From Cyanidioschyzon merolae (taxonomy: Eukaryota), in assembly GCA_000091205.1 (NCBI GenBank), contig AP006489.2: DNA of 64,000 nt. One strand, written 5' to 3'. The notes under the pieces are model-generated. The model was given only the letters and a program-made list of their open reading frames with translations, was not told the origin of the DNA and did no database searches. Shown one piece after another: positions 31,329 through 64,000 of this stretch. Within the stretch, counting starts at the first letter, position 1, and each line of letters begins with the position of its first letter. Both the position numbers and the translations under genes were made by a program.

Positions 31329-32492
31329 ATTCGTAGTGCCATGCTCGGACTCTAGTGTGTAGCACTGTACTGCGCAAGGATCGGGGTGATCTCTTCCATA
31401 TATCTACACATGACATCGTATGAAGCTGGTGCTTGTTCCGACGCACCACATCTACATGGATATATAAACAAGGACGGCGTCATGTTTTCCGAGGTCGAGT
31501 GCGCTCGGTGAAAGAGGAGAGCATGTTCCCTTCAGGTTCCACACTGATTGACATCTGTGTCTCCCACATGCATACGCCAGTATTTGAAAATCTAGAGAGC
31601 GCACCAGTATCGTGCCAGGATGGTGTGTGCCTCTGAAACGGCGAAAGCCGCGCAGTGCCATGCAGCTGGCAGTACCATCTGGACACTGCGGACACAGGTG
31701 GCCGCGCACCGTCTTTTCCCGAGAGCGCATCCCATGATGCGCCACGGACGCGGGAAATCGCAGGTCGTGTCACGGAAACAGCAGATTCCGTGACGCCGGC
31801 GATGAACAGCGCATGCGCGCATCACGTATCTAGGCCGCAGCGCGCGACGTGGTGCGCGGCAGATGTGTATGTATGTGTCATTATTTCCCTGAAGCAGGAC
31901 GCTGCACCCGCGATGCGCTTCTAACGACGCATCTGATTTTATTGAGACGATGCGGTAAACACGATATCGGTTAGCACTCGTGTGCCTGCACCGGACCTCT
32001 TGGACGGTGAGAATCTCGGGAACTGGTTATCCCGAAGAAATCGAAGCCAGCCGCGTCGACGAAGCGTTGCCGGAGGAGCTCGGGCGACATAGTCGTATTC
32101 GTCCTGTCACCGAAAATCACACGTATAACAGCTTGATAATCTAGAGCACGACACTGATTGGGTGTGTCGATGTGGCGTAAACGGTTGCTCAGCTCAGGCA
32201 CGTCGGGCCGATACTGCCGACCAAGACACCTGAGCGATCTGGTGTCCCGCGCAAGCTGGTGCCGGACGCACGCAACATTCGGAGAGAGTCGGCAGTTCCC
32301 TTTCGGTGCTGAGTTTGCGTCTGCGACCACTCGATTAGTATACGAAACGCACACCTGCCGTTTACAACCATTGTAGAGCTTGCCGTTCCGGACTTGTGCC
32401 CGAACCTTCATGTTTCCTGATGGCGCACTATCTATGCTGTAGTTCGCCTGCATTCAAAGAATTCAGCTTTCCATGGAGCCTCCTTTGCGTTT

Positions 32493-33068
32493 TCAGTATG
32501 CGCAAATGCTCCCTGTGTTCTGAATGTACACGATGATGCCAATCTCGTCCGTGCTCTCGCCGTTGATAGACCAGCGGTTGCCAACTATACGCCATGCAAT
32601 AGTTCCCACGAAGCAGTCTGCATTTATCTCCGCCACTGCTGCATCATCGACTTGGTAGAGATATCCATCGGAGTTGGCCTGAAACGGTTCATCGGTAACA
32701 GTAACATCATTGATAATGCAGCATTCACCGAAGCATAACGTGTTTCCCTCGAAGTAATCACCGTTAACCATGCGAACCGTGATGTACGACGGGCAAGATT
32801 CGCTGTTGACACTGTAGTCATTTTCGAGGTCACTGGTGTACCACTGAGCTTCATAGAGACCGTCCTCGCAACTGGAATAGAAATACGAGCCACTATCGCA
32901 CAGGTTACTTGGGCTGCAGGAGGAACAGTCCGTTTGAATACTGTTCTCTATCGTGCCGGTATCTGTATAGCACTCATAATAACAAGTCTGCCCCGAAACG
33001 GGTTCCTGCATAAAAGACAAGACAAACACGAGCGTCAAAAACACGAAAAGAGCACGCTTGCAAGACAT
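32493..33068 (-). CDS. Small secreted cysteine-rich protein, paralog A (signal peptide + ~165-aa mature region with ~12 Cys)
   Basis: MSCKRALFVFLTLVFVLSFMQEPVSG|QTC… is a classic n/h/c signal peptide. The mature part is Cys-rich and ends …GSICAY. It is the only convincing gene inside the duplicated unit. Confidence 0.6.
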   Translation of the reverse strand: MSCKRALFVFLTLVFVLSFMQEPVSGQTCYYECYTDTGTIENSIQTDCSSCSPSNLCDSGSYFYSSCEDGLYEAQWYTSDLENDYSVNSESCPSYITVRMVNGDYFEGNTLCFGECCIINDVTVTDEPFQANSDGYLYQVDDAAVAEINADCFVGTIAWRIVGNRWSINGESTDEIGIIVYIQNTGSICAY

Positions 33069-33132
33069 AAGGTTGGCGCTTTCGAGCAGAGTCTATAGCT
33101 TTTACTTCAACAACAAGCGACGCAGTTACGTA

Positions 33133-33217
33133 CTATGTGACTGTCACGCTGCGCGACACGCACACCGAGATGCAGCCGTGTCACGCTGCGCGACACGCAC
33201 ACCGAGATGCAGCCGCG
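33133..33217. repeat. 42-bp x 2 tandem motif (tgtcacgctgcgcgacacgcacaccgagatgcagccg) in the 5' flank of secreted-protein gene A; the same feature occurs at 40612..40696 upstream of gene B
   Basis: Direct duplication visible in the sequence; conserved between both segmental copies. Confidence 0.8.
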
Positions 33218-35688
33218 TCACGCCACCTGTGCATGGTGCACACGGATGCGCTCACAACGCCCCCAACGGATAGGAGATCTCCCAACGACGTGCGTTGTAT
33301 GAGAGCCGCCGCCGCCGCCGCCGAGCTTCACACGAGCGCATGACGTATCTGCGCGTCGTGTTCGCGCTTTGCGTATCTGGGCGCTGTCGTTGCGCTCGCG
33401 AGCGGCGGCGTCGTTTACTGGCGGGCAGCGCTGGTGTATTCGCGGTACGCGGTGCTGTATGTTGTACGCGAGCGCTGAGGAATCGGAAAGGTGGTATAAG
33501 TGTACCGAGTGGTCTGGGTGGCCATTGGGCACGCTCAGGGCGTCGTTGTTGACAGCAGGGATCCTGTTTCGCTGCTCGGTAGAGCTAAGAACGACTCAAA
33601 CAGAAGGAGTTCGCATAGCGACCGAGGGCGGAAACGGCAAACTTTGAACCTATTCTAGCTGCTATCGATAGCAGGCTTTGCGGACTTTCTCGGAGACTGT
33701 TTCCTTTTCCGCTCTTTTTTTTCTGCAAGTTTGACTGGGCTTGTTTCTCGTGTCTATCTTGCACTGTTGCTGTGAGCTGTTGAAGGATGTACACAACAGC
33801 GGTATAGCTCCGACCTCGCTGCCTCTGGTTGCTTTTCACGCTTCTCATATGCAGTATTTCGTTGCAACCTACGCTCCTGTTGCCTTTTTCATGAACTTTG
33901 GTGGCAGGAACGATGCGCCTTTTGCAGCGGTGTCACCTGGCAATGCTCGGATGTTGCAGCAGGTCTGGTGCACCTGCTGCAGCGCGGGCTCGCCCTGCAG
34001 CCCACGAAGGCTTGTCGCACCGCTCGGTACATGCCCGTGCGGGCCAGGGAAGGGTCGCGCGATGGTCTCCCCAGTTTCCACACCGGGTGCCGTATCCTAC
34101 GTTCACGGGCTACTGCATGGCGACTGTATTGGCAAGTAGGCCGTCGGCCGGAGAATCAAGCGGAGGCTGTTCCATTCTGTCGAAGATTTGCGGGACGAAA
34201 CTTCGTCTATGGTGAAACCAGCACCGGGAAGGAACCCCAGGCTGAAGCACAAATCGAGATATTTCGATCCGTATGCGCTCGCCTGGGGCAGTTCGGTGGA
34301 GCGTTTCCACAGGGAGCTGTGGTAGCCACGAGACGAACTCGTATCCAAGATCTTTTTTTTACGCGCAAACAGAAGAGACCCGAGTCTCCGGGAGCATATC
34401 CGTGCGAAATATGATGATGCTACTGTTGCGTGCCGTTTTGCAAACCGCCACAGAGAGACGCACACCTTTCGAACAGATAGAATTACTAGCCGTGACAGGT
34501 TCAATGAACTTTTATGTTTGAGCTTGTGGAGAAATCGAGAAAGGACGGCGCCCAGTTTATCCATGGTCATTGCAACAGAAGGCATTGTTGCGCCTTCGCA
34601 ATACCTTGGCCCAGGGAGTTTGGAAACATGAACCATGCGTGATATGCGCACGCTGCTTCGGAGGAAAGGAGACAAGCCGAGGCTCCTGCGTATCCACTGG
34701 ACCATGAAATAGAGTCTTTTGAAAGGCCTCGTATAAGAGCATCCCGAATCATGAAGAATCCGATGGTGTACCAAATTCTAGCGGCAAGGCGTTGAATAAA
34801 CCACTTCGAACATTCGACCCAGAATCCTAAAACTACGAATACGTCGGAACGTTCGTACTGGCGCACTTTGAGTCTCAAGTCTGCGGGTCAAAAAACAGTC
34901 CGAGAACCTCGAAGACCAGGAACAAAAGCGCGCAGTTATGTGGTTCTTTTCAGTCTGCCATGAGTCGAGGGCGAGCGACTGAGCGCGAACGCTCAAGGCA
35001 GTACCGCCCCAAAGTCGTATTCTTCCTCGCTATACGCGGAATCTCTGGGGCGTAGTGAGCCGAAAAAATACAGAAAAAACAAAACAAACTAGTTGCAAAA
35101 TATTGATTAAAGAACACCTATCTTATGGACCTACACACCACGGCCGCCTAAGAGGTTCCAATTTTCCTGGAGAAGCTCTGAAAGTGGGTTAACACGGGGT
35201 GCTTGGACGACGGCGATAGAAGACCACGACAGGAACCTTGACCGCAACGAACGGAGAGGCGGAGGCAGTAGCATCACAAAGTATTGACGAAAATGCTGAG
35301 CAGACATTCGCACCTCCCGAAACAACGCTGCAGGTGCGGGCACATATTCTGGATCCATCCTCGAACTCGGACTCAGGATTACCTCCTACCATGGGTACCT
35401 ACCTCGACTTTGGAAACAGTCTCGGCGGATACTTTGGAAGACGGCTGGCGGCATGTTCACGGTCGAAACTGGAGTAAGCGACTTGCCCGCGTATGTGTTT
35501 GGGGAGCGGATACGTAGCTGCTGAAAGGGTGTTTTGCAGACTGTTCCCAATGGTTGCGGGTAGCTTCACGCGTCCGGCAAGATAAAGTTTGCATTCGAAT
35601 CGACCAAGACTAATGTACTTCTGTTGCTAACTTCGCGCTGTGCCAAGCACTCAATGGACGACTGGAATGCAGGAAGCGCTGGTGGCGT

Positions 35689-38600
35689 GTGCGTTCACAC
35701 ACCCCGTGGAGCGTGCGTCTAAATCGACGACGTATCTCTGGAGCACCGCAGCGCCATTCCTATTTCCTTATGCGCTATGACTCGATAGGTTTCGCATCAT
35801 GGAATATTTGTGAGATAGCCCCGATACTAGACGACGAGAAGTCGAATTACCAGTACAGTAATGAGGAACTGATACAAATCGAGGACTCTACCTTAGCGAT
35901 AGAGACCCAACGAGATACGGAGAAGGAGGTACAGAGCCATCATGATCCAACCAGAAGCAAAATAACCAGAGAAAGTAGCTCAGGACAGAGCCCGAAGAAG
36001 AAGACCAGCAAGAGAAAACAAGAGAATAGAAAGAAGAACTCCGAAACGAGCCCATCACAAGTCATCCCCGGAAAGAACACCCCAGCCGGAACTCAAGAAA
36101 GCTGTCAAAAAACTCAGTCACCTACTCACAACGCGGTAGATCCGAAAAGCCGTGCATGCAAATCATTAGACCAACCGGGACGGCTGGCACCAGAACGTAA
36201 AAGTTGCAATCCGCAGTACCTGAAACGACGTACCAATACCCAGATTGATGAATGCCACCGACTCTATCAGATCGTCAACCGCACCGCCTTACGCGCCAAC
36301 GCCGGAGACAAGGAAGCGAAGGCAGTCCTAACGGCGCTACAGGCGCAACGTGAAGAAGCTATCAAAAGAAAGAAGAAACTTTCCAGAGAAGACAAACGAG
36401 AGGATCGAAGCCGCAAAATCGCCTCCCTGGCGAAATCTATGCTGGAGAGCACCACCGAAGATGAGACTTGGCGCTCCATTCGATCGAGACTGGAGCCACC
36501 AAAAAAGTGCTTGGGGCTCACACCAATCGTTGATAAGGAAGAGCTGAGGACGGAGGGTGCCTCAGTGAATGAGGCCTGGACAGACCACGGGACAGAGCTG
36601 CATGAAGACGCAACTGGGCACTGCCAAGACCCAATCTATCGGCACCAATATGCCGCAGAAGTACCGCGCATCGAACCGGTACTTGGAATGGAACGACCCA
36701 ATCTTCTGGCCTGAAATCGCTGAGACACTCTTAAGCTCATGCAACCGCAAAACACCTGGCATCGACGGTATCGCTGCCGAGTGGGTGAAACTGGCGACAC
36801 CAGAAGGCGAGACAACAGGGACACCATGGATACCAGATGAACCTGACACAAGCTTAGGCAAACGCTTTCTGGAGCTCATCCAACGCATGTTTGAAGAGGC
36901 ATACATCCCTGATGTATGGGGGACTGCCGAGGTCGTACCGGTCCTCAAAAAAGACTCCCACACAGACATGAACAGCTACCGGCCTATTCGCCTCATCCCG
37001 TCAATCATGAAGCTACTTTGCGCCATCCTCACGAACCGTATCCACAGCGGCCTCCAGGAGCGCAAGTTCTTCGCCCCAGAACAGGCTGGATTCCGGAGCC
37101 GCGAGGAGTGCATGAGCCATGCCCTGACCTTCATTGAAGTGGTGCAACGTCGCTTCACTAGCGACCAACAACCAACTTACGTATGCTTCATCGACTTCCA
37201 AAAGGCCTCGGACACGGTCCCGCACGAGGCTCTATTTCTGAAGATGGAACGTGCCGGAGTCTCCGAAAAGTGCTTAGCGTTCTTCCGTGCGCTCTATGTA
37301 GACTCATGGATGCGCATCCGACTGGGCGACGGCTCAAGAACCCCTTCGATAAGAATGCGCCGTGGACTGCGACAGGGCGATCCCGCATTCCCGCTCCTTT
37401 TCAACATCTTCATCAACGACCTGCTGAACAACTGCAGACAATACGTGCTTGAGGTGCCGTGGATAGACTGGGGAGATGCCCGATGAGGAGCCCTCATGTA
37501 GGAACCGCCTCGCAGGCCTTCTATTTGCGGACGATGTCGTGCTGTTGGTACCCGCCCCGGAAACGCTTGCGGGTAGCATGGAACAAGTCAGCGACTGGGC
37601 CGATCGCTGGGAGATAAGCATAGGAGCATCGAAGTGCGGCGTCATGGTCATTCATGGAGACTCGCAGAGCATTCGCAATCGCTCGTGGCGGTTGCAGAAT
37701 CAGGAAATTCCGATCGTGGAAAAATATCGCTACCTGGGGGGTCTGTCGCACATCGACGCTCGACGAAAAGGCACACGTCGACGAGATGATCGCCAAGATG
37801 CATAGACGTACAGCGATCGCACGCCCATTCTTATCCGACCCCTCTACCTGCATAGCAATCCGTACCAGCGCACTAAGGATGTGTATCATCCAGCCTGCGA
37901 CCTGGGGTGCTGAATGGTGCGGCATGAAGCACCCAAATGCCTCGCGTCTGCAGGCAGCCGCCAACAGGGCAATGCGACTCGTTGTTGTTGGGTGCTCAGT
38001 ACAGAGCAGAGCAACCACCGCGCTGGCACTCGGACTTGAACTCCAAATACCCTCGACAGAGGCGATAGCAGCAGGCTGCCGGGCATGTATACGGGCGAAG
38101 GGCTCCACTATGCGCACCTCTTTGAGTCGGATTTTCATGCAGACCCCAACGCACCGCAAGAACTCTTGGATGAAATCGACGCAGATTTGGCTGAAGCGCC
38201 TCTTGGGCGAAAACACGCTCCCCAATCTTTCCCCCAGGGATATAGAAGGCTCCCGCCGCCTCAAGCGAACGGTCCAAACACCAATATGGGATCGTAGACA
38301 CGGAACAAGTCGCGCCGGTAACGCCGGCTTTACTCTATACCGGAACTACACCCTAGCATACACATGCAAGTACTGGCGGGAGGCGCTGGAATTCCCGGGA
38401 CTTGCTCGAGGTACCCAGTGGCTCGCCAAAATGCGCGTTGGTGGCTTCTGGCTAGCAGCACCGGCTCTAAGCCGTATAGGAACACTGGAATCGCACTGGG
38501 AATCACACTGTCCCTGCTGTGGAAACGAGACCCCCGAGACGCTGACACATTTAGGCCTACAGTGGCCGCGCTGGAAACAGGAGCGCAGCGAGCTCCTTGA

Positions 38601-39298
38601 AGGACAGCAGCAGCTGGGCATCACCGTGATAGACGAAGGTCGGACACTCACTCTGAGTGTAGCACTGGCAATTGATGGTCCGCTAACCGAGCCTCAGCGC
38701 TCATTAGTGGCCAAAAAACTCACATGCTACCTTGTAGGTAAAAGGTCCAGCGAATCGGATGCGCATACGGGCGCAGTGCGCTTTCTGCGCCTACCTTCTG
38801 TGGTGGGTGTCAAGCACAAACCCGCATTGCCAACCAAGAACGCATTCCGTGCATGATCACGAGGAAGAGAGGCGGCTCCCAGAATTCATCCTAACAGCCA
38901 AGTTTCTCCAGCGTGTCGTGTAGCGAAGGCAGGCCTGCATCCGCAGACTGCCCGAGCGCAAACTGACGACGAGACCCGATTCTACGTCGGGTGAACCACG
39001 CCTCGAGCCGACGCCCTCTGAGGTATAGGAAAGCTGTTCTAGCTCTATGAACTATCTGCTCCAGCGGTTCAGGTGCCAAGGCGGATACGGAACGGCAGGC
39101 ACTCGGAACACACGATAGGACATATGAGGCGACAAGAATATCCGAGATGAAACATGGGTAATGTAATTTGAGAGTATGGTGTTGATGGACACCTCTCCTC
39201 GCACTGAAAAAAAAACACACAAAACAAGTAAGAAAAGAAAAATGCGCATAATCGGGGAACGCTGGCCTAAGAAAACGTTTTATCAATGAAAAAAAAAT
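35689..39298 (+). mobile_element. Non-LTR (LINE-like) retrotransposon, degenerate. It has a basic/coiled ORF1-like region (35689..36714), an RT-bearing ORF2 split by at least 2 frameshifts (36569..37486 / 37476..37805 / 37654..38856), and a 3' UTR ending in an A-rich tail (~39195..39298)
   Basis: RT motifs FIDFQKASDTVPHEALFLKMERAGV, MRRGLRQGDPAFPLLFNIFINDL and LLFADDVVLLVPAPE (FADD). The C-terminal motif CPCCGNETPETLTHLGL is the C..CG..ET.E..H zinc-knuckle-like block common to LINE ORF2 tails. The A-runs gaaaaaaaaacacacaaaacaag…caatgaaaaaaaaa end exactly where duplicate copy B begins. I recognise no APE endonuclease domain. The 5' boundary is uncertain and may lie 35.05-35.7 kb. Confidence 0.8.
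36569..38856 (+). pseudogene. LINE ORF2 (reverse transcriptase + C-terminal Cys/His motif) disrupted by frameshifts
   Basis: The RT domain continues across three different reading frames in the ORF track (305-aa, 109-aa and 400-aa pieces) with overlapping ends. Confidence 0.75.
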
Positions 39299-42200
39299 GC
39301 GCATCACGTATCTAGGCCGCAGCGCGCGATGTGGTGCGCGGCAGATGTGTATGTATGTGTCATTATTTCCCTGAAGCAGGACGCTGCACCCGCGATGCGC
39401 TTCTAACGACGCATCTGATTTTATTGAGACGATGCGGTAAACACGATATCGGTTAGCACTCGTGTGCCTGCACCGGACCTCTTGGACGGTGAGAATCTCG
39501 GGAACTGGTTATCCCGAAGAAATCGAAGCCAGCCGCGTCGACGAAGCGTTGCCGGATGAGCTCGGGCGACATAGTCGTATTCGTCCTGTCACCGAAAATC
39601 ACACGTATAACAGCTTGATAATCTAGAGCACGACACTGATTGGGTGTGTCGATGTGGCGTAAACGGTTGCTCAGCTCAGGCACGTCGGGCCGAGACTGCC
39701 GACCAAGACACCTGAGCGGTCTGGTGTCCCGCGCAAGCTGGTGCCGGACGCACGCAACATTCGGAGAGAGTCGGCAGTTCCCTTTCGGTGCTGAGTTTGC
39801 GTCAGCGACCACTCGATTAGTATACGAAACGCACACCTGCCGTTTACAACCATTGTAGAGCTTGCCGTTCCGGACTTGTGCCCGAACCTTCATGTTTCCT
39901 GATGGCGCACTATCTATGCTGTAGTTCGCCTGCATTCAAAGAACTCAGCTTTCCATGGAGCCTCCCTTGCGTTTTCAGTATGCGCAAATGCTTCCCGTGT
40001 GCGGAATGTACACGATGACGCCAAATGCGTCCGTGCTCTCGCCGTTGATAGACCAGTTTCTGGCATTTGCAGCCCATGCAATAGTTCCCACGAAGCAGTC
40101 TGCATTTATCTTCGCCACACCTGCATAATCGACTTTGTACAGATGCCCATCGGATTTGGCCCGATACGGTTCATACTTAACAGCAACATCATTGGCACTG
40201 CAGCATTCGTCGAAGCATATCGTGTTGGCCTCGAGGTAATGATAGTTAACCAAGCGAAACGTAATGTAGGACGGGCAAGGAACGCTCTTGACACTGTAGT
40301 CTACATCCAGAAAACTGGTGTACCACTGAGCGTCAAAAGTGCCGTCCTTGCAATTGGAAAAGAAGCTCAAGTCTCTGCAGAGGTGACTTGGACTGCAGGA
40401 GGAACAGTCCGTATGAATAGTTTTCTCAATCGTGCGGTTTTCTGTATAGCACAGATAGGAACAAGTCTGCCCCGAAACGGGTTCCTGCATAAAAGACAAG
40501 ACAAACACGAGCGTCAAAAACACGAAAAGAGCACGCTTGCAAGACATAAGGTTGGCGCTTTCGAGCAGAGCCTATAGCTTTTACTTCAACAACAAGCGAC
40601 GCAGTTACGTACTATGTGACTGTCACGCTGCGCGACACGCACACCGAGATGCAGCCGTGTCACGCTGCGCGACACGCACACCGAGATGCAGCCGTGTCAC
40701 GCCACCTGTGCATGGTGCACACGGATGCGCTCACAACGCCCCCAACGGATAGGAGATCTCCCAACGACGTGCGTTGTATGAGAGCCGCCGCCGCCGCCGA
40801 GCTTCACACGAGCGCATGACGTATCTGCGCGTCGTGTTCGCGCTTTGCGTATCTGGGCGCTGTCGTTGCGCTCGCGAGCGGCGGCGTCGTTTACTGGCGG
40901 GCAGCGTTGCTGTATTCGCGGTACGCGGTGCTGTATGTTGTACGCGAGCGCTGAGGAATCGGAAAGGTGGTATAAGTGTACCGAGTGGTCTGGGTGGCCA
41001 TTGGGCACGCTCAGGGCGTCGTTGTTGACAGCAGGGATCCTGTTTCGCTGCTCGGTAGAGCCAAGAACGACTCAAACAGAAGGAGTTCGCATAGCGACCG
41101 AGGGCGGAAACGGCAAACTTTGAACCTGTTCTCGCTGCTATCGATAGCAGGCTTTGCGGACTTTCTCGGAGACTGTTTCCTTTTCCGCTCTTTTTTTCTG
41201 CAAGTTTGACTGGGCTTGTTTCTCGTGTCTATCTTGCACTGTTGCTGTGAGCTGTTGAAGGATGTACTCAACAGCGGTATAGCTCCGACCTCGCTGCCTC
41301 TGGTTGCTTTTCACGCTTCTCATATGCAGTATTTCGTTGCAACCTACGCTCCTGTTGCCTTTTTCATGAACTTTGGTGGCAGGAACGATGCGCCTTTTGC
41401 AGCGGTGTCACCTGGCAATGCTCGGATGTTGCAGCAGGTCTGGTGCACCTGCTGCAGCGCGGGCTCGCCCTGCAGCCCACGAAGGCTTGTCGCACCGCTC
41501 GGTACATGCCCGTGCGGGCCAGGGAAGGGTCGCGCGATGGTCTCCCCAGTTTCCACACCGGGTGCCGTATCCTACGTTCACGGGCTACTGCATGGCGACT
41601 GTATTGGCAAGTAGGCCGTCGGCCGGAGAATCAAGCGGAGGCTGTTCCATTCTGTCGAAGATTTGCGGGACGAAACTTCGTCTATGGTGAAACCAGCACC
41701 GGGAAGGAACCCCAGGCTGAAGCACAAATCGAGATATTTCGATCCGTATGCGCTCGCCTGGGGCAGTTCGGTGGAGCGTTTCCACAGGGAGCTGTGGTAG
41801 CCACGAGACGAACTCGTATCCAAGATCTTTTTTTTACGCGCAAACAGAAGAGACCCGAGTCTCCGGGAGCATATCCGTGCGAAATATGATGATGCTACTG
41901 TTGCGTGCCGTTTTGCAAACCGCCACAGAGAGACGCACACCTTTCGAACAGATAGAATTACTAGCCGTGACAGGTTCAATGAACTTTTATGTTTGAGCTT
42001 GTGGAGAAATCGAGAAAGGACGGCGCCCAGTTTATCCATGGTCATTGCAACAGAAGGCATTGTTGCGCCTTCGCAATACCTTGGCCCAGGGAGTTTGGAA
42101 ACATGAACCATGCGTGATATGCGCACGCTGCTTCGGAGGAAAGGAGACAAGCCGAGGCTCCTGCGTATCCACTGGACCATGAAATAGAGTCTTTTGAAAG

Positions 42201-45715: not shown

Positions 45716-47338
45716 GTGTTCGCGCTATCTAGTGCACAATCAGTTCCGTTTCACGCCATGGCTCGCAGGCACCTTTTCGCTGGCAGGTTTGCGGGATTCG
45801 CACCCGTCACTGGTGCGCTCTGGTTACGTCCAGGGCAGCGGGCGAGCTCACCGGTGACAGGCGCCTCGGACTCAGTATCGCGCCTTGGACAACGGCATCC
45901 GGTTTCTAGGCGTTGGCGGCAACAGCGAACCGGGCTGTTCAACGTGCGACTGTCCACGCGTCGGCTCCGGGTCTTTATCTCCACGGGGGAGGTCTCTGGT
46001 GATATGCACGGTGCTGCGCTAGCCCGGAGCCTCAAGCAGCAAGCGATGCATCGAGGTGGCTCGAGACAGCAGCAGCAGCTGCTGCTGCTGCGCGGAGTAG
46101 GCGGCCCAGCGATGCGACAAGAAGGTGTCGAGCTCTACGCCGACACGCTTCGCATCTCCTCCATTGGCCTCTATGAGGCACTGCGCTTTGTGGTGCCTGC
46201 TTATCTCGCATACGAAAAAGCAAAAAAGGAGCTGCTCGAGGATCCTCCGGATGTCGCCGTTCTGATCGATTACACTGGACCGAATATGGCGCTGGCCACC
46301 TGGTTTCGCCAAAACCTGCCTGGTGTGCCGGTAATCTCGTACATCGGACCTCAGCAGTGGATCTGGGAAGCGAATGGGAAGCCAGCGCACCGTCTATTGG
46401 ATTATTTTCCGATTCTGGCGACATGCTGCCGTTGTCTGGTTGCGATTTTCCCGCTAGAGGCAGCGTTCTACTGCCGAAAGCTCGAGGAGCTCGGGGCGCT
46501 TCCAAATCCACCGCCGCAAATTGTCTACGTAGGACATCCGATTCTGGATCTGGTTGAGCCCGTGACGCGAGACGCCGCTCGGGCAATGCTTCCATGGACA
46601 AGCTCGGAGCACGTGTGTGTGGCGTTGATGGTCGCCTCACGCCTACAGGAAATCGGTGCTTTGCTTCCGGCGACAACGCGCGCAGCCCTGGCTATGGAAA
46701 AGTCGCTAGAGGCGAAGGACCCCCCGAAGCGCATTCGGTTTATCATTCCAACGGCTAGACCTGAGTTTTCGGATCAAATTCGTCGTGTCTTGTTGGATCA
46801 GGGCGTGCCGTCGTCACGTATTGCGTCATGGGATCCGAACCTGCGCGAGATGCATCCCGAGACGCTCTTTTTCCTGGTACCACGAGATTATGCTCGCCTG
46901 GTGCTTGCAGCAGCCGATCTTGCAATCTGCAAGTCGGGCACGGTAAATTTGGAGGCGGCGGTGCTCGGTGTACCTCAAATCGTGCTGTATCGTTTATCGT
47001 GGACCTCGGCCTTTGTCATCCGTCACCTATTCCAGATGCAACTACCGTACGTGTCAGCAGTGAATGTAGTCTGTCTGGATCAGGCGATTGTGCCGGAGCT
47101 GCTGCAGGAGCACGTCACACCGGAGCGAATCCACGAAGAGGCCATGGCGTTGCTAGAGAATCGCAACGGCTGTGCTGACCGGATGCGTCACTCGTACCAG
47201 AGCCAGGTGCTGCCGCGCCTGCGTCTAGCCGAGGACTGCCCTGAGCCGGTCGTCGAGCGAACTGCGGCCGGCAGAGCTGCCGCCGTTGTTTGGCGCTACC
47301 TAGACCAGGCGCAAGAAAGCCGCACACTGGTCACCTGA
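45716..47338 (+). CDS. lpxB: Lipid-A-disaccharide synthase (LpxB, GT19), preceded by an ~80-aa Arg/Ser/Ala-rich presequence (probable organellar transit peptide)
   Basis: LRVFISTGEVSGDMHGAALARSLK is the LpxB N-terminal signature. Also VLIDYTGPNMALA, DLAICKSGTVNLEAAVLGVPQIVLYR and YVSAVNVVCLDQAIVPELLQ. 540-aa ORF. Confidence 0.8.
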   Translation: MFALSSAQSVPFHAMARRHLFAGRFAGFAPVTGALWLRPGQRASSPVTGASDSVSRLGQRHPVSRRWRQQRTGLFNVRLSTRRLRVFISTGEVSGDMHGAALARSLKQQAMHRGGSRQQQQLLLLRGVGGPAMRQEGVELYADTLRISSIGLYEALRFVVPAYLAYEKAKKELLEDPPDVAVLIDYTGPNMALATWFRQNLPGVPVISYIGPQQWIWEANGKPAHRLLDYFPILATCCRCLVAIFPLEAAFYCRKLEELGALPNPPPQIVYVGHPILDLVEPVTRDAARAMLPWTSSEHVCVALMVASRLQEIGALLPATTRAALAMEKSLEAKDPPKRIRFIIPTARPEFSDQIRRVLLDQGVPSSRIASWDPNLREMHPETLFFLVPRDYARLVLAAADLAICKSGTVNLEAAVLGVPQIVLYRLSWTSAFVIRHLFQMQLPYVSAVNVVCLDQAIVPELLQEHVTPERIHEEAMALLENRNGCADRMRHSYQSQVLPRLRLAEDCPEPVVERTAAGRAAAVVWRYLDQAQESRTLVT

Positions 47339-53975: not shown

Positions 53976-56069
53976 ATGTCTCTAGTGCGTTCTCTAACAG
54001 AGCGCCGCTCCATATGTCTCCAATCTGTTTCGTCTCTTCTGCGCACTGAAGTGACGCCTAGCGAATACACGCAACGAAGGTCACGTGAGTGTGCAGCGCA
54101 CCAGTCATCCACGTTGAACGCTCAAAGGGCGTGCTCACGGCACGCGCCTGCCTGGCAGCTGGTCGCGGGCTTCCAGCAGTCGTGCAGATCGCTTGAGAGG
54201 TCCGCTGAATACGATGCGAAATCACTCAGATATCCAGCGACAGGCACAACAGGACAAATCATGTCCATGCGACAGCGATCTTTTGGGGTGCAGTCACGGA
54301 GCCTGGGAGTGACCGTTGGTCCGGCCTCATCGCTGCCGCTCGAGTCGGAGGAGTCCGGATCTGGCACCAGCAAGCGCTCCAGTGGACCAGCTACTGAGGA
54401 GCGTGCCGCTGTCGCAGCAGCACTCGCATCGAGTGCTTCAGAAGCGAACGAAGTTGCCTCGTCTGCCAAGATATCTGGACTGCTACCACCGCCGCCTTCT
54501 GCTGAAACTCGCTTGGAGTCAGCTCCGCCCCTGAACCTGTTCGACGTGGAGGCGACATACGGCACAACGCCAACGCGTGATCTCATTCGATCGCTTTTTG
54601 TTCTCCGCACCGCTCAAATGGGATGGCTGGTGCGCTACGCACCGACACTTTATCGCTGGACACAGCGCGTGCCATTGTTGCGAGAATCAACAAACCTATT
54701 CATTAAGTACACATTTTTCCGGCATTTCTGTGGCGGCGAGACGCTTTCCGAATGCCGCGAGTACGTTGAAAAATTGCGTGCTCGTGGCGTCGGCTCTATT
54801 CTCGACTATTCGGCAGAGGGCGAAGCGGCGCCAATGAACGCGGCCGCAGTCGGGCGTCGCCGCGGAGATGGTCTGCTCCTGGAGGAATCGGATATCTCTC
54901 CTGATGAGGTACGTTACGACGGCGCCGCAAATGTGCTCATGACGACGGTGCAATGGGCTGGCAACGAGGCCAGACACTGCGACACGATCAGCTGTCTCAA
55001 GGTATCAGCGCTTGCTCGGTTCGAGTTGCTGGAAAGGATCAGCGAGGCATTAGCTATTCGTTTTGGGAATCTGACGACGACCCACGATGGCACGCCATTC
55101 CTGCTATTAGGTCACTTTGATGCAAATGGCCTCGTTCGAGCGATAGCTGACTCTTACGAATTCGACGAGTCGGAAATTGGCATGGCAGGTGCTGTCGGCA
55201 TGGCAGCGTCGGGCTCTGGAGCTGCTGTGGATCACGAGCCCAAGCAGCCGTCGGATTCGATTTTGGACCACGTGTCACTGCATCTTTTCAATGAGTATTT
55301 GTCGCCTGCGGAGCGCCTCGAATTCGCGCGGGTACTCTGTCGCCTCGATGCGGTGTGTTCTGAGGCAAGGCGCTATCGAGTCCCGATGCTGATCGATGCA
55401 GAGCAGTACTCCATTCAGACTGCGATTGATTTCTGTGCGGGACTGATGATGTTGCGACACAATCGCTCGTTTGAGTCCGACCAGGAAACACCAGCAATTA
55501 TGTACTCCACTGTACAGTCGTATCTGAAAGATTCACCGGAACGCCTCAAGGCCTACCGCGAGCTTGCGAGTCGTTTCCGTTTCCGCTACGGTGTCAAGCA
55601 GGTGCGTGGTGCCTACATGGCCTCAGAGCGTCGACGCGCTGCTGCGGCGGGTCGCCCAGACCTATCACCCATCCACGACACGATCGAGGATACACACGCG
55701 AGCTACAATGCTGGACTGAGTGCGCTCATCGACGAGGTGCGGGCTGGCCACGCGGCGGCTCTATTTGCCACGCACAACGTGGAGTCGCTCCAGCGAGCAG
55801 TGGAGCTTGTTGGCTCCGACTCTTTACTGCGCCGAAACGCGGCGTTACGTTTCGCTCAGCTCTACGGGATGGGTGATTCGCTAACTTTCGGCCTTGCCAG
55901 GGCAGGCTTCAGAGCCTGCAAATACGTTCCATTCGGGCGCGTCGATGAGGTGATGCCGTACCTGTTACGACGGCTGGAGGAGAATCACAGCGCGTTGGGA
56001 ACGGCACCACGAGATATCTCGCACTTCTTGGCCGAACTGCGGCGTAGAGACCTCCGTGTGCCTTTATGA
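53976..56069 (+). CDS. PRODH: Proline dehydrogenase (PRODH/PutA-type); an internal start near MSMRQRSF (~54262) is plausible
   Basis: VPMLIDAEQYSIQTAIDFC and YGMGDSLTFGLARAGFRACKYVPFGRVDEVMPYLLRRLEENHS are conserved C-terminal PRODH blocks. VQSYLKDSPERL also fits. 697-aa ORF. Confidence 0.85.
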   Translation: MSLVRSLTERRSICLQSVSSLLRTEVTPSEYTQRRSRECAAHQSSTLNAQRACSRHAPAWQLVAGFQQSCRSLERSAEYDAKSLRYPATGTTGQIMSMRQRSFGVQSRSLGVTVGPASSLPLESEESGSGTSKRSSGPATEERAAVAAALASSASEANEVASSAKISGLLPPPPSAETRLESAPPLNLFDVEATYGTTPTRDLIRSLFVLRTAQMGWLVRYAPTLYRWTQRVPLLRESTNLFIKYTFFRHFCGGETLSECREYVEKLRARGVGSILDYSAEGEAAPMNAAAVGRRRGDGLLLEESDISPDEVRYDGAANVLMTTVQWAGNEARHCDTISCLKVSALARFELLERISEALAIRFGNLTTTHDGTPFLLLGHFDANGLVRAIADSYEFDESEIGMAGAVGMAASGSGAAVDHEPKQPSDSILDHVSLHLFNEYLSPAERLEFARVLCRLDAVCSEARRYRVPMLIDAEQYSIQTAIDFCAGLMMLRHNRSFESDQETPAIMYSTVQSYLKDSPERLKAYRELASRFRFRYGVKQVRGAYMASERRRAAAAGRPDLSPIHDTIEDTHASYNAGLSALIDEVRAGHAAALFATHNVESLQRAVELVGSDSLLRRNAALRFAQLYGMGDSLTFGLARAGFRACKYVPFGRVDEVMPYLLRRLEENHSALGTAPRDISHFLAELRRRDLRVPL

Positions 56070-61614: not shown

Positions 61615-63475
61615 GTAACGTCGTAGTACATCTCCTTGACCATATAAACCAGTGCTAAAGAAGCTTTACGAATACTCCTGGAGTACAAATTGACACAGTT
61701 TCTGATGGCCTCTCACAAATTTTCCTTGTACGGGTTCTTAACATGTTTAAGAAGAGAGGCATTCACGAGCATCTCGTCGTACTGTCGCTTCCTTGCATCG
61801 TTTGACGTAGGGCCTCCTGCCTTTGGTTCTTGGTCCTCTCCCGTTCCTATGAGCTTGGCACTGGTTTTCGATTTTTCTCCCGCAGCCGGCGATACCGGCT
61901 CTCCAGGATCCTCCACTCCCTATTCCACAACTTTCCTTTCTTATTATTTTGAAAATGAACGCATTCTGAATGCTTCTGGCATAAACCGCGAAAAATCAGT
62001 TGGACATACTTACTTGGGGATTGGTACACGGTTGAACTGAAATCTATTCTTTGCTACGACTTTAGTAAATATATTTTACGTTAGCGCAACACGCGAATAC
62101 AAAGGATCGCGTCTCGCTTTAGCTGCGAGATGCAAGTCGTGTCTCATGCCTGCCAGCTATGAAGGTGCGCTTATCGACCGCGCAACAGAAAAAAAAGAAC
62201 AGAAACTAAACACTAACTAGTAACGAAAGATAAATTTCGTTCGAACTTCATGCTAAGCGATAAAAGAAGAAAAGGTTTCCGTATTTTAGAAAGCTTGCCT
62301 TCTAGGAGGAAGGCCACGCGAGCCGCACATGTGTGCGGGGCACGTGCTCTATGCTTCCCAAGTGACAGGTGCTTTAGTGCGATCTGGGCAACTCATCCAC
62401 AACGCAGTTTATTCTTCCGGTAGGAGAGGGTATGCTGCAGGTGAGCGTCGCACTGGTCGAAGATGACTCCCAGTATAAAGCGCCGCGCTGTTACAGGCAG
62501 TAGGTCAGCGTGTCCAGCTTGGAGGCTCCCAGAAGTATAAATAGCCCTGGTTCCGTGTCAAGGGAACCAAGCCTCTTCCGACGCGCTCAGTGGTATGCCG
62601 AAGCTGTTCTGTTTCCGTAGCGCATCCGCATCAGCGATAGAGATGCTACGGCGGGTGCTCATGGCAAGCAAACGGAGCACGATAGAAAGTATGAATCAAC
62701 CAGTACAGCCGAGAGTAAATAAAAACGTTGGAACGTACAGAAATTTTTCACCATGATGGACGCATTCCCGACAGCCAATATCTATCAAGCAATCTGGGAT
62801 ATATGTTGAGTGGAAACGTTCCGTCGAACCAAAGAAAGCATAGCACGTGAGGGAATTCCCTAATGTCTCTGGTATTCGAAGCATCGCCTTGGCAGATGCA
62901 TGTGCGCTCAAATTATCCCGCAGGAGTAAATTCCCTTATACCTCCGCTGCGCTATTCGTCGGCAGGCAGCGATCGTCGTGATCTCGGAGGAAGACTTTGC
63001 GGAGCTCTTAGCGCGAAGTATTTGCGAGGTTACTGGTCCGAAAACTGGGAGCTTTAACTGGTTTCTGAAAAGGATACAGAGCGCTTGTGCTAGTTCCACT
63101 CAACGCTTGGAAGTCTACACGAGACTGAGGTCAGAATCTGTGTAATTGACGGACGATCACTCGTGCAGCTACACCAAAGAGGTTTTTGACTGGATACGCA
63201 CGCTTACGCGAACGTTCCTAGTTGGTGGCGCGATTGGCAGCTTTGCACCGGAGAAAATCTAATCCAAGAAAATGCAAGCTCTTTTCGTTTCTGTTCCGCT
63301 GTACCAGGAAAGACATATTGTTTGCGCGCGCGCTGCAACTCGAGCACCGTTCCCGCTGCGTACGCCTCGTAACGGGTGCTTCGCAGCTGGACATCGTCAC
63401 CACTGCCAGCATCCGCTTCCTTTGGTGGTGCAGCGTTTGCCTGTAGCGCGCCGGCACCACGCGCTGCATCTTCGT

Positions 63476-64000
63476 ATGGGCCCGAAACAGTCGCAGATCG
63501 CCGTGATCACTGGCGCGTCCTCTGGGGTCGGTCTGTATGCAGCTCGCGCTCTGATCAACAAGGGCAACTGGCACATCGTCATGGCATGTCGTGACGTCGA
63601 CCGGGCGGAGCGCGCAGCAAACAGCGTAAACCTTCCAAAAGACGCCTATACAGTGCTGCATTGTGATCTGGCTGATTTCGCCTCTGTGTTGAAGTTTGTG
63701 AGAGAGCTGTCAAGTGTGGCGCGCGTCGACCACCTGGATGCCCTGATCTGCAATGCCGCAATCTGGCATCCGCGGGACAAGAAACCGCGTTTCACGGTGG
63801 ACGGCATCGAGGAAACCATGCAGGTATGCCATCTGAGCCATTTGCTTCTATGTCGGGAGCTGTTGCCGAAGCTGAAAATATCGCGCGGGCGCATTGTGTT
63901 TCTGACGACTCAGACACACTCGCCGAATTCGTTGCCGGGAAAGATTCCCCCGCAGGCTCGTCTCGGTGATTTGTCTGGTCTAGCCGCGGGGCTTGGTCCG
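63476..64000 (+). CDS. POR: Light-dependent protochlorophyllide oxidoreductase (LPOR, SDR family), 5' partial — runs off the window end
   Basis: My translation from the ATG at 63476 is MGPKQSQIAVITGASSGVGLYAARALINKGNWHIVMACRDVDRAERAANSVNLPKDAYTVLHCDLADFASVLKFV…ALICNAAIWHPRDKKPRFTVDGIEETMQVCHLSHLLLCRELLPKLK…LPGKIPPQARLGDLSGLAAGL. It is collinear with LPOR (ITGASSGxGL…WHxxMACRD…PKDSYT…LDL…VCNAAVY…NHLGHFLL…GNxPPKAxLGDLxGLAGG). It is absent from the ORF track because there is no stop codon before the window edge. Confidence 0.85.
   Translation, partial: MGPKQSQIAVITGASSGVGLYAARALINKGNWHIVMACRDVDRAERAANSVNLPKDAYTVLHCDLADFASVLKFVRELSSVARVDHLDALICNAAIWHPRDKKPRFTVDGIEETMQVCHLSHLLLCRELLPKLKISRGRIVFLTTQTHSPNSLPGKIPPQARLGDLSGLAAGLGP

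What the first reader, a model, noticed from the sequence alone, without database searches (positions are those of the whole stretch)
45716..47338. Bacterial-type lipid-A-disaccharide synthase (LpxB) encoded in a eukaryotic nuclear context with a probable transit peptide
The ORF has the LpxB N-terminal signature and core motifs behind an ~80-aa R/S/A-rich, acidic-residue-free leader typical of organellar targeting. Eukaryotic LpxB homologues are restricted to plastid-bearing lineages, where lipid-A-like precursors are made in organelles. Its presence, together with POR at the 3' window edge, marks this organism as photosynthetic. It also raises the question of whether the rest of the Lpx pathway (LpxA/C/D/K, KdtA) is present.
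Basis: partly seen in the sequence, partly recalled or inferred. Interest (0 to 1): 0.5.

Follow-up and report, generated by a model that had tools for sequence, protein, structure and literature searches.

The report
Red-alga nuclear LpxB gene, already annotated
This is the already annotated nuclear gene of the red alga Cyanidioschyzon merolae for a bacterial-type lipid A disaccharide synthase with an organelle-targeting leader; it is a real and intact gene but not a new discovery.

Summary
The ORF is real. Read from its first ATG (45758..47338, 526 aa), it is letter-for-letter XP_005535989.1 / BAM79703.1, [quoted passage not shown]. It passes the curated LpxB models: Pfam PF02684 at 211 bits, and the TIGR00215 equivalog at 199.4 bits against a cutoff of 190.25. 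It keeps the E. coli active-site residues. The AlphaFold model is a confident GT-B fold whose best PDB matches are E. coli LpxB.

A 71-aa leader precedes the catalytic domain. It is Arg-rich (15 R), has one acidic residue, and is disordered in the model. All five cyanidiophycean orthologues carry such a leader, but it is poorly conserved.

The neighbours are eukaryotic genes. Their order is conserved in Cyanidiococcus and in a metagenomic cyanidialean contig, so contamination is excluded.

The closest prokaryotic relatives are cyanobacterial. In my NJ trees the red-algal clade never paired with green-plant LpxB, but the deep nodes are weakly supported.

Plastid versus mitochondrial targeting cannot be settled from sequence. 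The early Phe favours the plastid; the Arabidopsis precedent favours the mitochondrion.

A Tetrahymena mitochondrial complex I subunit belongs to the LpxB family.

Lipid A biosynthetic potential in Cyanidiales was already published in 2004, so the finding is correct but known.

The parts
45758..47338 (+). Complete intron-less CDS of C. merolae lipid-A-disaccharide synthase (LpxB, GT19), 526 aa plus TGA stop
   Evidence: Identical to XP_005535989.1/BAM79703.1; PF02684 211 bits; TIGR00215 199.4 bits > 190.25; first ATG and stop checked
45716..45757 (+).
   Evidence: GTG at 45716 is preceded by two in-frame stops; first ATG at 45758; the deposited protein starts at the ATG
45758..45970 (+). N-terminal organelle-targeting leader, 71 aa: R 15, K 0, D 1, E 0, net +14; Phe at positions 7, 11 and 14
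   Evidence: Absent from all cyanobacterial homologues; composition; residues 1-57 have pLDDT < 50 and no secondary structure; 23-40% identity among cyanidialean orthologues versus 54-72% for the mature part
45971..47335 (+). Catalytic GT-B domain (two Rossmann-like halves plus C-terminal helices)
   Evidence: AlphaFold2 mean pLDDT 87.5, pTM 0.85; best PDB fold matches are E. coli LpxB 5w8s/5w8n/5w8x, E 5e-17
45980..46003 (+). STGEVSGD motif; E78 and S80 correspond to E. coli E15 and S17
   Evidence: Alignment to 5w8s; invariant in red algae and cyanobacteria; residue roles from PMC5785501
46163..46204 (+). IGLYEALRFVVPAY: equivalent of the E. coli membrane-binding hydrophobic loop and helix (V66, V68, L69, L72, L75, L76)
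   Evidence: Alignment pairs these with Y139, A141, L142, F144, P147, A148; role of the patch from PMC5785501
46268..46270 (+). [quoted passage not shown]
   Evidence: conserved in at least 90% of 89 sequences; role from PMC5785501
46637..46642 (+). S294-R295, equivalents of E. coli S200-R201 (UDP phosphate contacts; R201 is essential)
   Evidence: R295 is invariant across 89 LpxB sequences; alignment; role
46934..46954 (+). SGTVNLE; T395 and E399 correspond to E. coli T277 (beta-phosphate) and E281 (ribose hydroxyls)
   Evidence: roles
47063..47065 (+). N436, equivalent of E. coli N316 (stabilises the swapped C-terminal segment)
   Evidence: Invariant across 89 sequences; alignment; role
46481..46516 (+). 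Cyanidiaceae-specific insertion LEELGALPNPPP, longer in Cyanidium; absent from Galdieria, green-lineage and bacterial LpxB
   Evidence: Alignment blocks

Best explanation
This is the single-exon nuclear gene of Cyanidioschyzon merolae 10D for lipid-A-disaccharide synthase (LpxB, glycosyltransferase family 19).

Proposed mechanism:
- The precursor is made in the cytosol.
- Its 71-residue basic, unstructured leader directs it into an organelle and is then removed. I judge the plastid somewhat more likely than the mitochondrion (about 55:35, the rest dual or other).
- The mature GT-B enzyme sits peripherally on a membrane. It condenses UDP-2,3-diacylglucosamine with 2,3-diacylglucosamine-1-phosphate (lipid X) to give the beta-1',6-linked tetra-acyl disaccharide-1-phosphate plus UDP, as in the bacterial Raetz pathway.

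Shown here: gene identity, family membership, conservation of the active-site residues, the fold, the presence and disorder of the leader, and the eukaryotic syntenic context.

Inferred: enzymatic activity, the substrates, cleavage of the leader, the destination organelle, and the presence of the upstream enzymes.

Ancestry: the gene belongs to a clade uniting cyanobacteria, Archaeplastida and a few other bacteria. Within it, it lies nearest to cyanobacteria. This fits transfer from the plastid ancestor, but that node is weakly supported.
For: - Identity: exact match to XP_005535989.1/BAM79703.1.
- Family: PF02684 at 211 bits, TIGR00215 equivalog above its cutoff, E. coli LpxB E 9e-17 by sequence, and 2.7e-106 with the family profile.
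- Active site: E. coli E15, S17, D98, S200, R201, T277, E281 and N316 correspond to E78, S80, D171, S294, R295, T395, E399 and N436, all conserved (roles from PMC5785501).
- Fold: pLDDT 87.5, pTM 0.85, residues 1-57 disordered; the top PDB matches are LpxB.
- Leader: present in all five cyanidiophycean orthologues at 52-77 aa, with 13-15 Arg in the four Cyanidiaceae; the Galdieria leader has only 3 Arg + 5 Lys. It evolves much faster than the mature part. It has Phe at position 7 after Leu; Cyanidiococcus has F4 and Galdieria F6, and the window's own POR begins MQALFVSVP. An early Phe in a hydrophobic context is described as typical of red-algal plastid transit peptides (PMC3095331, PMC9407449, PMC2222254).
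- Context: eukaryotic neighbours and conserved synteny in Cyanidiococcus and a cyanidialean metagenome contig.
- Relatives: after the Cyanidiophyceae, all of the best 120 hits in the 90% database are cyanobacterial-type, at 35-40% identity. NJ bootstrap support: Cyanidiaceae 100%, red+cyanobacteria 40-43%, the whole cyanobacteria+Archaeplastida clade 62-78%.
Against: - No biochemical or localisation data exist for this protein.
- The leader is very Arg-rich (21%) and almost free of acidic residues, which suits a mitochondrial presequence equally well.
- The Arabidopsis Lpx proteins are reported to be mitochondrial (PMC3355754, PMC5741210).
- The early Phe is not conserved in position: first Phe at 16 in the metagenomic orthologue and 22 in Cyanidium.
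- My crude hydrophobic-moment and composition comparison did not separate it from likely mitochondrial proteins of the same window.
- P198 of E. coli, conserved in at least 90% of homologues, is Val here. The F298 equivalent is not aromatic in the pairwise alignment.
- I could not check whether LpxA, LpxC, LpxD, LpxK or KdtA exist in this genome.
- The phylogeny used NJ only, with unnamed metagenomic taxa and weak deep nodes.
Confidence: 0.85

Rival explanations
1. Same enzyme, but imported into mitochondria as in Arabidopsis. The lipid A-like pathway would then be a mitochondrial lipid pathway in red algae too.
For: Arabidopsis Lpx homologues are described as part of a mitochondrial pathway that makes lipid X (PMC3355754; PMC5741210). 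The leader has 21% Arg, no Lys, one acidic residue and net charge +14. Possible R-2/R-3 processing contexts lie near its end (VRLS/TRRLR; read directly from the sequence). An LpxB-family protein is a mitochondrial complex I subunit in Tetrahymena.
Against: Phe lies at position 7 in a hydrophobic context, the feature reported to mark red-algal plastid transit peptides. The leader is long (71 aa) and predicted fully unstructured, with no amphipathic helix. The nearest prokaryotic relatives are cyanobacterial. Green-plant LpxB did not group with the red-algal clade in any bootstrap replicate, so the Arabidopsis localisation may not transfer.
Confidence: 0.35
2. The gene reached the Cyanidiophyceae by later horizontal transfer from a cyanobacterium or allied bacterium, not by inheritance from the plastid endosymbiont shared with green plants.
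For: Red+green monophyly received 0 of 200 and 0 of 100 (two distance methods) bootstrap replicates. The green lineage shares STGD..GD and PPNEW motifs with a bacterial clade that includes a Schekmanbacteria MAG, whereas red algae share STGEVSGD and (A/G)PQ(E/Q)W with cyanobacteria. No non-cyanidiophycean red alga appeared among the best 120 or best 150 hits.
Against: Galdieria and the Cyanidiaceae group together in 42-75% of replicates, so the gene predates the deepest split in the class. A GT19 lpxB homologue is reported in Porphyridium (PMC12843361) but was not placed in my tree. An RLLD-containing insertion is shared with the non-cyanobacterial clade, which confuses the signal. NJ on divergent sequences is prone to long-branch artefacts.
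Confidence: 0.2
3. An LpxB-family protein that no longer makes lipid A disaccharide. It would either use other substrates or have a mainly structural role, like the LpxB-like subunit of ciliate complex I.
For: No lipid A has been chemically demonstrated in red algae, as far as the searched library shows. There are Cyanidiaceae-specific insertions. P198 is replaced by Val, and F298 has no aromatic equivalent. The TIGR00215 score is only just above its cutoff. Tetrahymena provides a precedent.
Against: Every residue with an assigned catalytic or UDP-binding role is retained. The mature domain is under clear constraint, at 54-72% identity across genera versus 23-40% for the leader. It is 35-40% identical to bona fide cyanobacterial LpxB.
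Confidence: 0.1
4. A bacterial contaminant, or a bacterial-type gene mis-assembled into the contig.
For: None beyond its bacterial family. Prokaryotic gene callers on metagenomes also called it.
Against: The flanking genes are eukaryotic. The same gene order, AAA_28 - Mpv17/PMP22 - ZnF - LpxB - ferroportin - ProDH, occurs in an independent Cyanidiococcus assembly and in a metagenomic contig. GC content is uniform with the surroundings. The leader is absent from bacterial homologues.
Confidence: 0.01

Closest known systems
Escherichia coli LpxB (PDB 5W8S/5W8N/5W8X; GT19)
   Same: Same family and fold. The E15/S17/D98/S200/R201/T277/E281/N316 equivalents are all present, as is a hydrophobic loop-helix at the membrane-binding position.
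   Different: About 23% identity in the structural alignment. The alga has a 71-aa leader, several insertions and a longer C-terminal helix region. P198 is Val. Whether it forms the C-terminally swapped dimer was not tested.
Cyanobacterial LpxB (for example Planktothrix, Halothece, Leptolyngbyaceae)
   Same: The closest prokaryotic sequences, at 35-40% identity over about 76-86% of the query. They share the exact FISTGEVSGD and SGTVNLE motifs and group with the red-algal clade in NJ trees.
   Different: They have no leader and lack the Cyanidiaceae insertions (LLDYFP region, LEELGAL..PNPP, C-terminal PRLRLAEDCPEP).
Arabidopsis thaliana LpxB (At2g04560) and other green-lineage LpxB (Marchantia, Sphagnum, Mesostigma, Cymbomonas, Closterium, Prasinoderma, Taxus)
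   Same: Nuclear-encoded bacterial-type LpxB with an N-terminal extension. They fall in the same broad clade with cyanobacteria. They belong to a partial Raetz pathway in a eukaryote (PMC3355754; PMC5741210).
   Different: Only 28-35% identical to the C. merolae protein. Their motifs differ (STGDVxGD, PPNEW). They never paired with the red-algal clade in bootstrap replicates. They are reported as mitochondrial, whereas the location of the red-algal protein is unknown.
Orthologues in Cyanidiococcus yangmingshanensis, Cyanidium caldarium and Galdieria phlegrea
   Same: Orthologous: 71%, 49% (53% in the multiple alignment) and 42% identity respectively (38% in the multiple alignment). All carry leaders, and synteny is conserved in Cyanidiococcus.
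   Different: Leader sequences are barely alignable. Galdieria lacks the Cyanidiaceae-specific insertions.
Tetrahymena thermophila complex I subunit deposited as 'Lipid-A-disaccharide synthase' (PDB 7TGH chain T1)
   Same: LpxB-family by profile (E 2.8e-19) and by fold (E 1e-14, TM 0.54-0.58). It is a eukaryotic, organelle-located member.
   Different: 13-14% identity. It is a structural part of a respiratory complex in an organism without a plastid. Its catalytic competence was not examined here.

Membership tests
LpxB / glycosyltransferase family 19 (lipid-A-disaccharide synthase) | Score above the curated thresholds of the family models | tested here: met
   PF02684 211.4 bits against cutoff 22.6. 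TIGR00215 equivalog 199.4 bits against cutoff 190.25, a narrow pass.
LpxB / glycosyltransferase family 19 (lipid-A-disaccharide synthase) | GT-B fold of two Rossmann-like domains, most similar to solved LpxB | tested here: met
   AlphaFold2 pLDDT 87.5, pTM 0.85. The Foldseek top three PDB hits are E. coli LpxB at E 5e-17; the high rmsd is expected because the crystal chain has a swapped C-terminus.
LpxB / glycosyltransferase family 19 (lipid-A-disaccharide synthase) | Active-site residues E15, S17, D98 (predicted base), S200, R201, T277, E281, plus N316 (E. coli numbering) | tested here: met
   E78, S80, D171, S294, R295, T395, E399 and N436 are all present (roles from PMC5785501). P198 is Val and G199 is Ala; Ala also occurs in cyanobacteria.
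LpxB / glycosyltransferase family 19 (lipid-A-disaccharide synthase) | Surface hydrophobic patch for membrane association (E. coli V66, V68, L69, L72, L75, L76) | tested here: inconclusive
   The aligned residues are Y139, A141, L142, F144, P147 and A148, with V145-V146 replacing R73-R74. Hydrophobic character is kept, but the alignment in this loop is approximate and function cannot be judged from sequence.
LpxB / glycosyltransferase family 19 (lipid-A-disaccharide synthase) | Catalyses UDP-2,3-diacyl-GlcN + lipid X -> disaccharide-1-phosphate + UDP | not testable with these tools
   Needs an enzyme assay or complementation of E. coli lpxB.
Raetz pathway (lipid A biosynthesis) as a functioning pathway in this organism | Presence of LpxA, LpxC and LpxD (substrate supply), a UDP-diacylglucosamine hydrolase (LpxH/I/G), and LpxK and KdtA | not testable with these tools
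   Only this 64-kb window of the genome is available. None of its ORFs of at least 150 aa that I scanned belongs to those families. No paper in the library links C. merolae to these genes. The title of Weber et al. 2004 reports lipid A biosynthesis potential in Galdieria.
Red-algal-type plastid transit peptide | N-terminal extension lacking in bacterial homologues, few acidic residues, unstructured | tested here: met
   71 aa with one Asp and no Glu, absent from cyanobacterial LpxB, pLDDT < 50 with no helices. These features do not exclude a mitochondrial presequence.
Red-algal-type plastid transit peptide | Phenylalanine within a few residues of the N-terminus, in a hydrophobic context | tested here: inconclusive
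   C. merolae has L6-F7-A8, with further Phe at 11 and 14. Cyanidiococcus has F4 and Galdieria F6, but the first Phe is at 16 and 22 in two other orthologues. The criterion comes from PMC3095331, PMC9407449 and PMC2222254. P5CDH and mTERF in this window, whose locations I can only guess, also have an early Phe.
Red-algal-type plastid transit peptide | Demonstrated import into the plastid and processing | not testable with these tools
   Needs a GFP fusion or import assay in C. merolae. No targeting predictor was available.

The most novel reading that the evidence does not exclude
Red-algal and green-plant LpxB are not the same inherited gene. The red-algal copy would descend from the cyanobacterial plastid ancestor and work in the plastid envelope, a surviving piece of the endosymbiont's outer-membrane lipid machinery. 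The green-lineage copy would come from a different bacterial donor and work in mitochondria. Archaeplastida would then have kept or acquired a lipid A-type pathway twice, in two different organelles.
Probability: 0.2. Interest if true: 0.55.

Novelty: already known. Interest (0 to 1): 0.2.

Why it matters
The product and role of the bacterial-type lipid A pathway in photosynthetic eukaryotes remain unresolved. In Arabidopsis the final lipid product had not been identified as of the 2012 summary (PMC3355754). C. merolae has a tiny, nearly intron-free genome and single-copy genes, and targeted transformants are routine (for example PMC9407449). A knockout or tagged allele of this one gene could therefore show in which organelle the pathway runs and what lipid it makes. 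That is a useful experimental handle, not a discovery. The gene is already annotated as lipid-A-disaccharide synthase, and lipid A biosynthetic potential in Cyanidiales was reported in 2004.

Tried and rejected
1. Contamination or mis-assembly: rejected on eukaryotic neighbours and conserved synteny.
2. Another GT-B family: UDP-GlcNAc 2-epimerase (PF02350) scored 15.7 bits, below its 30.6 cutoff. The LpxB-related TIGR03492 scored 26 bits against a cutoff of 219. Both rejected.
3. GTG start at 45716: rejected in favour of the first ATG at 45758, which matches the deposited protein.
4. Separating plastid from mitochondrial targeting by composition and helical hydrophobic moment, using other organellar proteins of the window as a comparison: uninformative. 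No TargetP-type tool was available.
5. Finding the rest of the Lpx pathway: not possible with only this window. Protein searches list only the top hits, which would all be bacterial, so I did not spend searches on it. Six literature searches combining Cyanidioschyzon, red algae or Galdieria with Lpx or lipid A terms found no analysis of the C. merolae genes.
6. Li et al. 2011 and Weber et al. 2004 could not be read because they are not held. They are cited only through other papers' text and reference lists.
7. An exact-sequence contig look-up for the window protein returned nothing. Orthologue look-ups worked.
8. No maximum-likelihood tree software was available. I used my own NJ with Kimura and BLOSUM-score distances plus bootstrapping, so the deep branching should be treated as provisional.
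9. A paper that seemed to mention lipid A in Galdieria partita had no whole-word match.
Full report
**Observation**

The ORF listing shows an open frame at exactly the reported coordinates: 45716..47338, plus strand, 540 aa from a GTG. Two in-frame stop codons lie immediately upstream, and the first ATG is at 45758. Read from that ATG, the 526-aa product is identical in sequence to XP_005535989.1 / BAM79703.1 / UniRef100_M1VGC1, [quoted passage not shown], carried on a 584,452-bp record.

**Family assignment**

- The protein matches Pfam LpxB (PF02684) at 211 bits, E 2.4e-62, over residues 86-487 of the 540-aa frame.
- It passes the NCBIfam equivalog model TIGR00215 at 199.4 bits against a cutoff of 190.25, a narrow pass.
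- Competing GT-B models fall below threshold: the UDP-GlcNAc 2-epimerase family scores 15.7 bits against 30.6, and TIGR03492 scores 26 bits against 219.
- The only solved structures found by sequence are E. coli LpxB, at E 9e-17. A profile of 89 homologues finds the same entries at E 2.7e-106.
- An AlphaFold2 model built on that alignment is confident (mean pLDDT 87.5, pTM 0.85). It shows alternating strand-helix elements from residue 70 to the C-terminus.
- The three best Foldseek matches in the PDB are E. coli LpxB at E 5e-17. The large rmsd is expected, because the crystal chain exchanges its C-terminal segment with the dimer partner (PMC5785501).

**Active site**

PMC5785501 assigns these roles in E. 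coli LpxB: E15 and S17 in the N-terminal loop, D98 as the predicted catalytic base, S200, R201 and T277 on the UDP phosphates, E281 on the ribose hydroxyls, and N316 stabilising the swapped C-terminus. The corresponding residues here are E78, S80, D171, S294, R295, T395, E399 and N436.

Across 89 diverse homologues, R295 and N436 are invariant. S80, D171, S294 and E399 are conserved in at least 90%. There are two deviations: Val replaces the usually conserved Pro before the Ala-Ser-Arg triplet (E. coli Gly-Ser-Arg), and there is no aromatic residue at the position aligned with F298. The segment aligned with the E. coli membrane-binding patch (IGLYEALRFVVPAY) is hydrophobic.

I conclude that the protein is very probably a competent LpxB. 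Activity itself is inferred, not shown.

**The leader**

Seventy-one residues precede the conserved RVFISTGEVSGD start of bacterial LpxB. They contain 15 Arg, no Lys, no Glu and one Asp, giving a net charge of +14. Cyanobacterial homologues begin within a few residues of the motif.

All five cyanidiophycean orthologues have leaders of 52-77 residues: C. merolae, a metagenomic relative, Cyanidiococcus, Cyanidium and Galdieria. The four Cyanidiaceae leaders are Arg-rich (13-15 Arg); the Galdieria leader is not (3 Arg, 5 Lys). The leaders are only 23-40% identical where alignable, against 54-72% for the mature part. In the model, residues 1-57 have pLDDT below 50 and no secondary structure. This is the behaviour of a cleavable targeting peptide.

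Which organelle it addresses cannot be decided here.

- For the plastid: three papers describe an early Phe in a hydrophobic context as the mark of red-algal and glaucophyte transit peptides (PMC3095331; PMC9407449; PMC2222254). This leader has L6-F7-A8 plus F11 and F14. Cyanidiococcus has F4 and Galdieria F6. The POR gene at the window edge begins MQALFVSVP.
- Against the plastid: the first Phe is at 16 and 22 in two orthologues. The Arg richness suits a mitochondrial presequence. The Arabidopsis Lpx proteins are reported as mitochondrial (PMC3355754; PMC5741210).
- A simple composition and hydrophobic-moment comparison with other organellar proteins of the window did not discriminate.

I put plastid at about 55% and mitochondrion at about 35%.

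**Context**

The window has uniform GC of about 50-60%. It encodes typical eukaryotic proteins: mTERF, PP2C, a Plus-3 domain protein, Mpv17/PMP22, ferroportin, proline dehydrogenase, P5C dehydrogenase, a reverse transcriptase, organellar Met-tRNA formyltransferase, and light-dependent protochlorophyllide reductase truncated by the 3' edge.

The order AAA_28 - Mpv17/PMP22 - zinc-finger protein - LpxB - ferroportin - ProDH recurs in the independent Cyanidiococcus yangmingshanensis assembly. The LpxB - ferroportin - ProDH part also recurs on a 104-kb metagenomic contig. Contamination is excluded.

**Relatives and ancestry**

- In the 90%-clustered database, the hits after the Cyanidiaceae are all cyanobacterial-type LpxB at 35-40% identity.
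- In the 50%-representative library, the order is Cyanidiococcus, Galdieria phlegrea (248 bits), cyanobacteria-like sequences (188-222 bits), then green-lineage proteins: Mesostigma, Marchantia, Closterium, Cymbomonas, Sphagnum, Prasinoderma and Taxus.
- I built neighbour-joining trees with bootstrapping, using two taxon sets and two distance measures:

| Grouping | Bootstrap support |
|---|---|
| Cyanidiaceae | 100% |
| Cyanidiaceae + Galdieria | 42-75% |
| Red algae + cyanobacteria | 40-43% |
| Green lineage + a bacterial clade that includes a Schekmanbacteria MAG | 40-56% |
| All of these together, against other bacteria | 62-78% |
| Red + green | 0% in every analysis |

- Motifs agree with this pattern. 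Red algae and cyanobacteria share STGEVSGD and (A/G)PQ(E/Q)W. Green sequences have STGDVxGD and PPNEW, like the other bacterial clade.
- One insertion (RLLD...) links the red algae to that bacterial clade instead.

The safest statement is that Archaeplastida LpxB belongs with cyanobacterial LpxB, with the red-algal gene nearest to cyanobacteria. Whether red and green copies share one origin is open. One published phylogenomic survey lists eukaryotic lpxB among mitochondrion-derived genes (PMC4198247), which my trees do not obviously support for the red-algal gene.

**What is known already**

- The gene carries its functional name in GenBank and UniProt.
[quoted passage not shown]" (reference list of PMC10154280; the paper itself is not held).
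- Plant homologues of six Raetz-pathway genes, and their mitochondrial location, are established.
- The patchy distribution in green algae has been discussed.
- A GT19 lpxB homologue is noted in Porphyridium transcriptomes (PMC12843361).
- I found no paper in the library that analyses the C. merolae Lpx genes specifically.

The PDB holds a Tetrahymena thermophila complex I subunit deposited as "Lipid-A-disaccharide synthase" (7TGH chain T1 and four further entries). It matches the LpxB profile at E 2.8e-19 and the C. merolae model at Foldseek E 1e-14. LpxB-family proteins are therefore not confined to plastid-bearing eukaryotes.

**Verdict**

This is a correct reading of an already annotated gene in a well-known model genome. 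Its remaining interest lies in unanswered questions: which organelle, what lipid product, and one or two origins in Archaeplastida. C. merolae would be a good system for answering them.

Noticed in passing
PDB 7tgh_T1 (also 8b6f, 8bqs, 8gym, 8gzu); not in the window: An accessory subunit of Tetrahymena thermophila mitochondrial complex I is deposited as 'Lipid-A-disaccharide synthase'. It matches the LpxB profile (E 2.8e-19) and the C. merolae model (Foldseek E 1e-14, TM 0.54-0.58). This is an LpxB-family protein in a eukaryote without a plastid, built into a respiratory complex.
   Followed up: partly
window 31800-34700 and 39300-42200, with ORFs 35770-36714, 36569-37486 and 37654-38856 between them: Two direct repeats of about 3 kb, 95-100% identical and spaced about 7.48 kb apart, flank a reverse-transcriptase ORF (RVT_1). 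This looks like a retroelement or a tandem pair of elements. The syntenic Cyanidiococcus locus has only about 2.5 kb between the Mpv17/PMP22 and zinc-finger genes (L001), so the block appears specific to C. merolae.
   Followed up: partly
window 25755-58371; L001 1-17470; L002 8001-16103: The gene order AAA_28 - Mpv17/PMP22 - TRAFD1-like zinc finger - LpxB - ferroportin - proline dehydrogenase is conserved between C. merolae and Cyanidiococcus yangmingshanensis. The LpxB - ferroportin - ProDH part is also conserved in a JGI metagenome contig (3300051397, Ga0531430_00098).
   Followed up: yes
window 63272-64000 (+): The 5' part of light-dependent protochlorophyllide reductase (TIGR01289, 182.9 bits, model positions 2-171 of 315) runs off the window end. 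Its N-terminus, MQALFVSVP, is a textbook red-algal Phe-type transit peptide start.
   Followed up: yes
window 53976-56069 (+) and 10824-12722 (-): Both enzymes of proline catabolism lie in this window about 41 kb apart: proline dehydrogenase (PF01619) and P5C dehydrogenase (TIGR01236, 764 bits).
   Followed up: no
alignment A2 (green-lineage proteins P0147, P0148, P0163, P0175, P0292, P0151): Green-lineage LpxB replace the E15-equivalent Glu with Asp (STGDVxGD). They share a PPNEW motif with a small bacterial clade that includes a Candidatus Schekmanbacteria MAG (P0167), rather than with cyanobacteria.
   Followed up: partly
cluster of P0001: Many metagenome gene calls for this same protein are 444-445 aa. 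Prokaryotic gene callers apparently started them at Met83, which would remove the leader and the STGEVSGD motif. These truncated database entries are artefacts, not isoforms.
   Followed up: no
window 796-2079 (+) and 4813-6660 (+): Two further organelle-related genes each carry an N-terminal extension: a methionyl-tRNA formyltransferase (TIGR00460, 199.2 bits, just under its 201.5 cutoff) and an mTERF-family protein.
   Followed up: no
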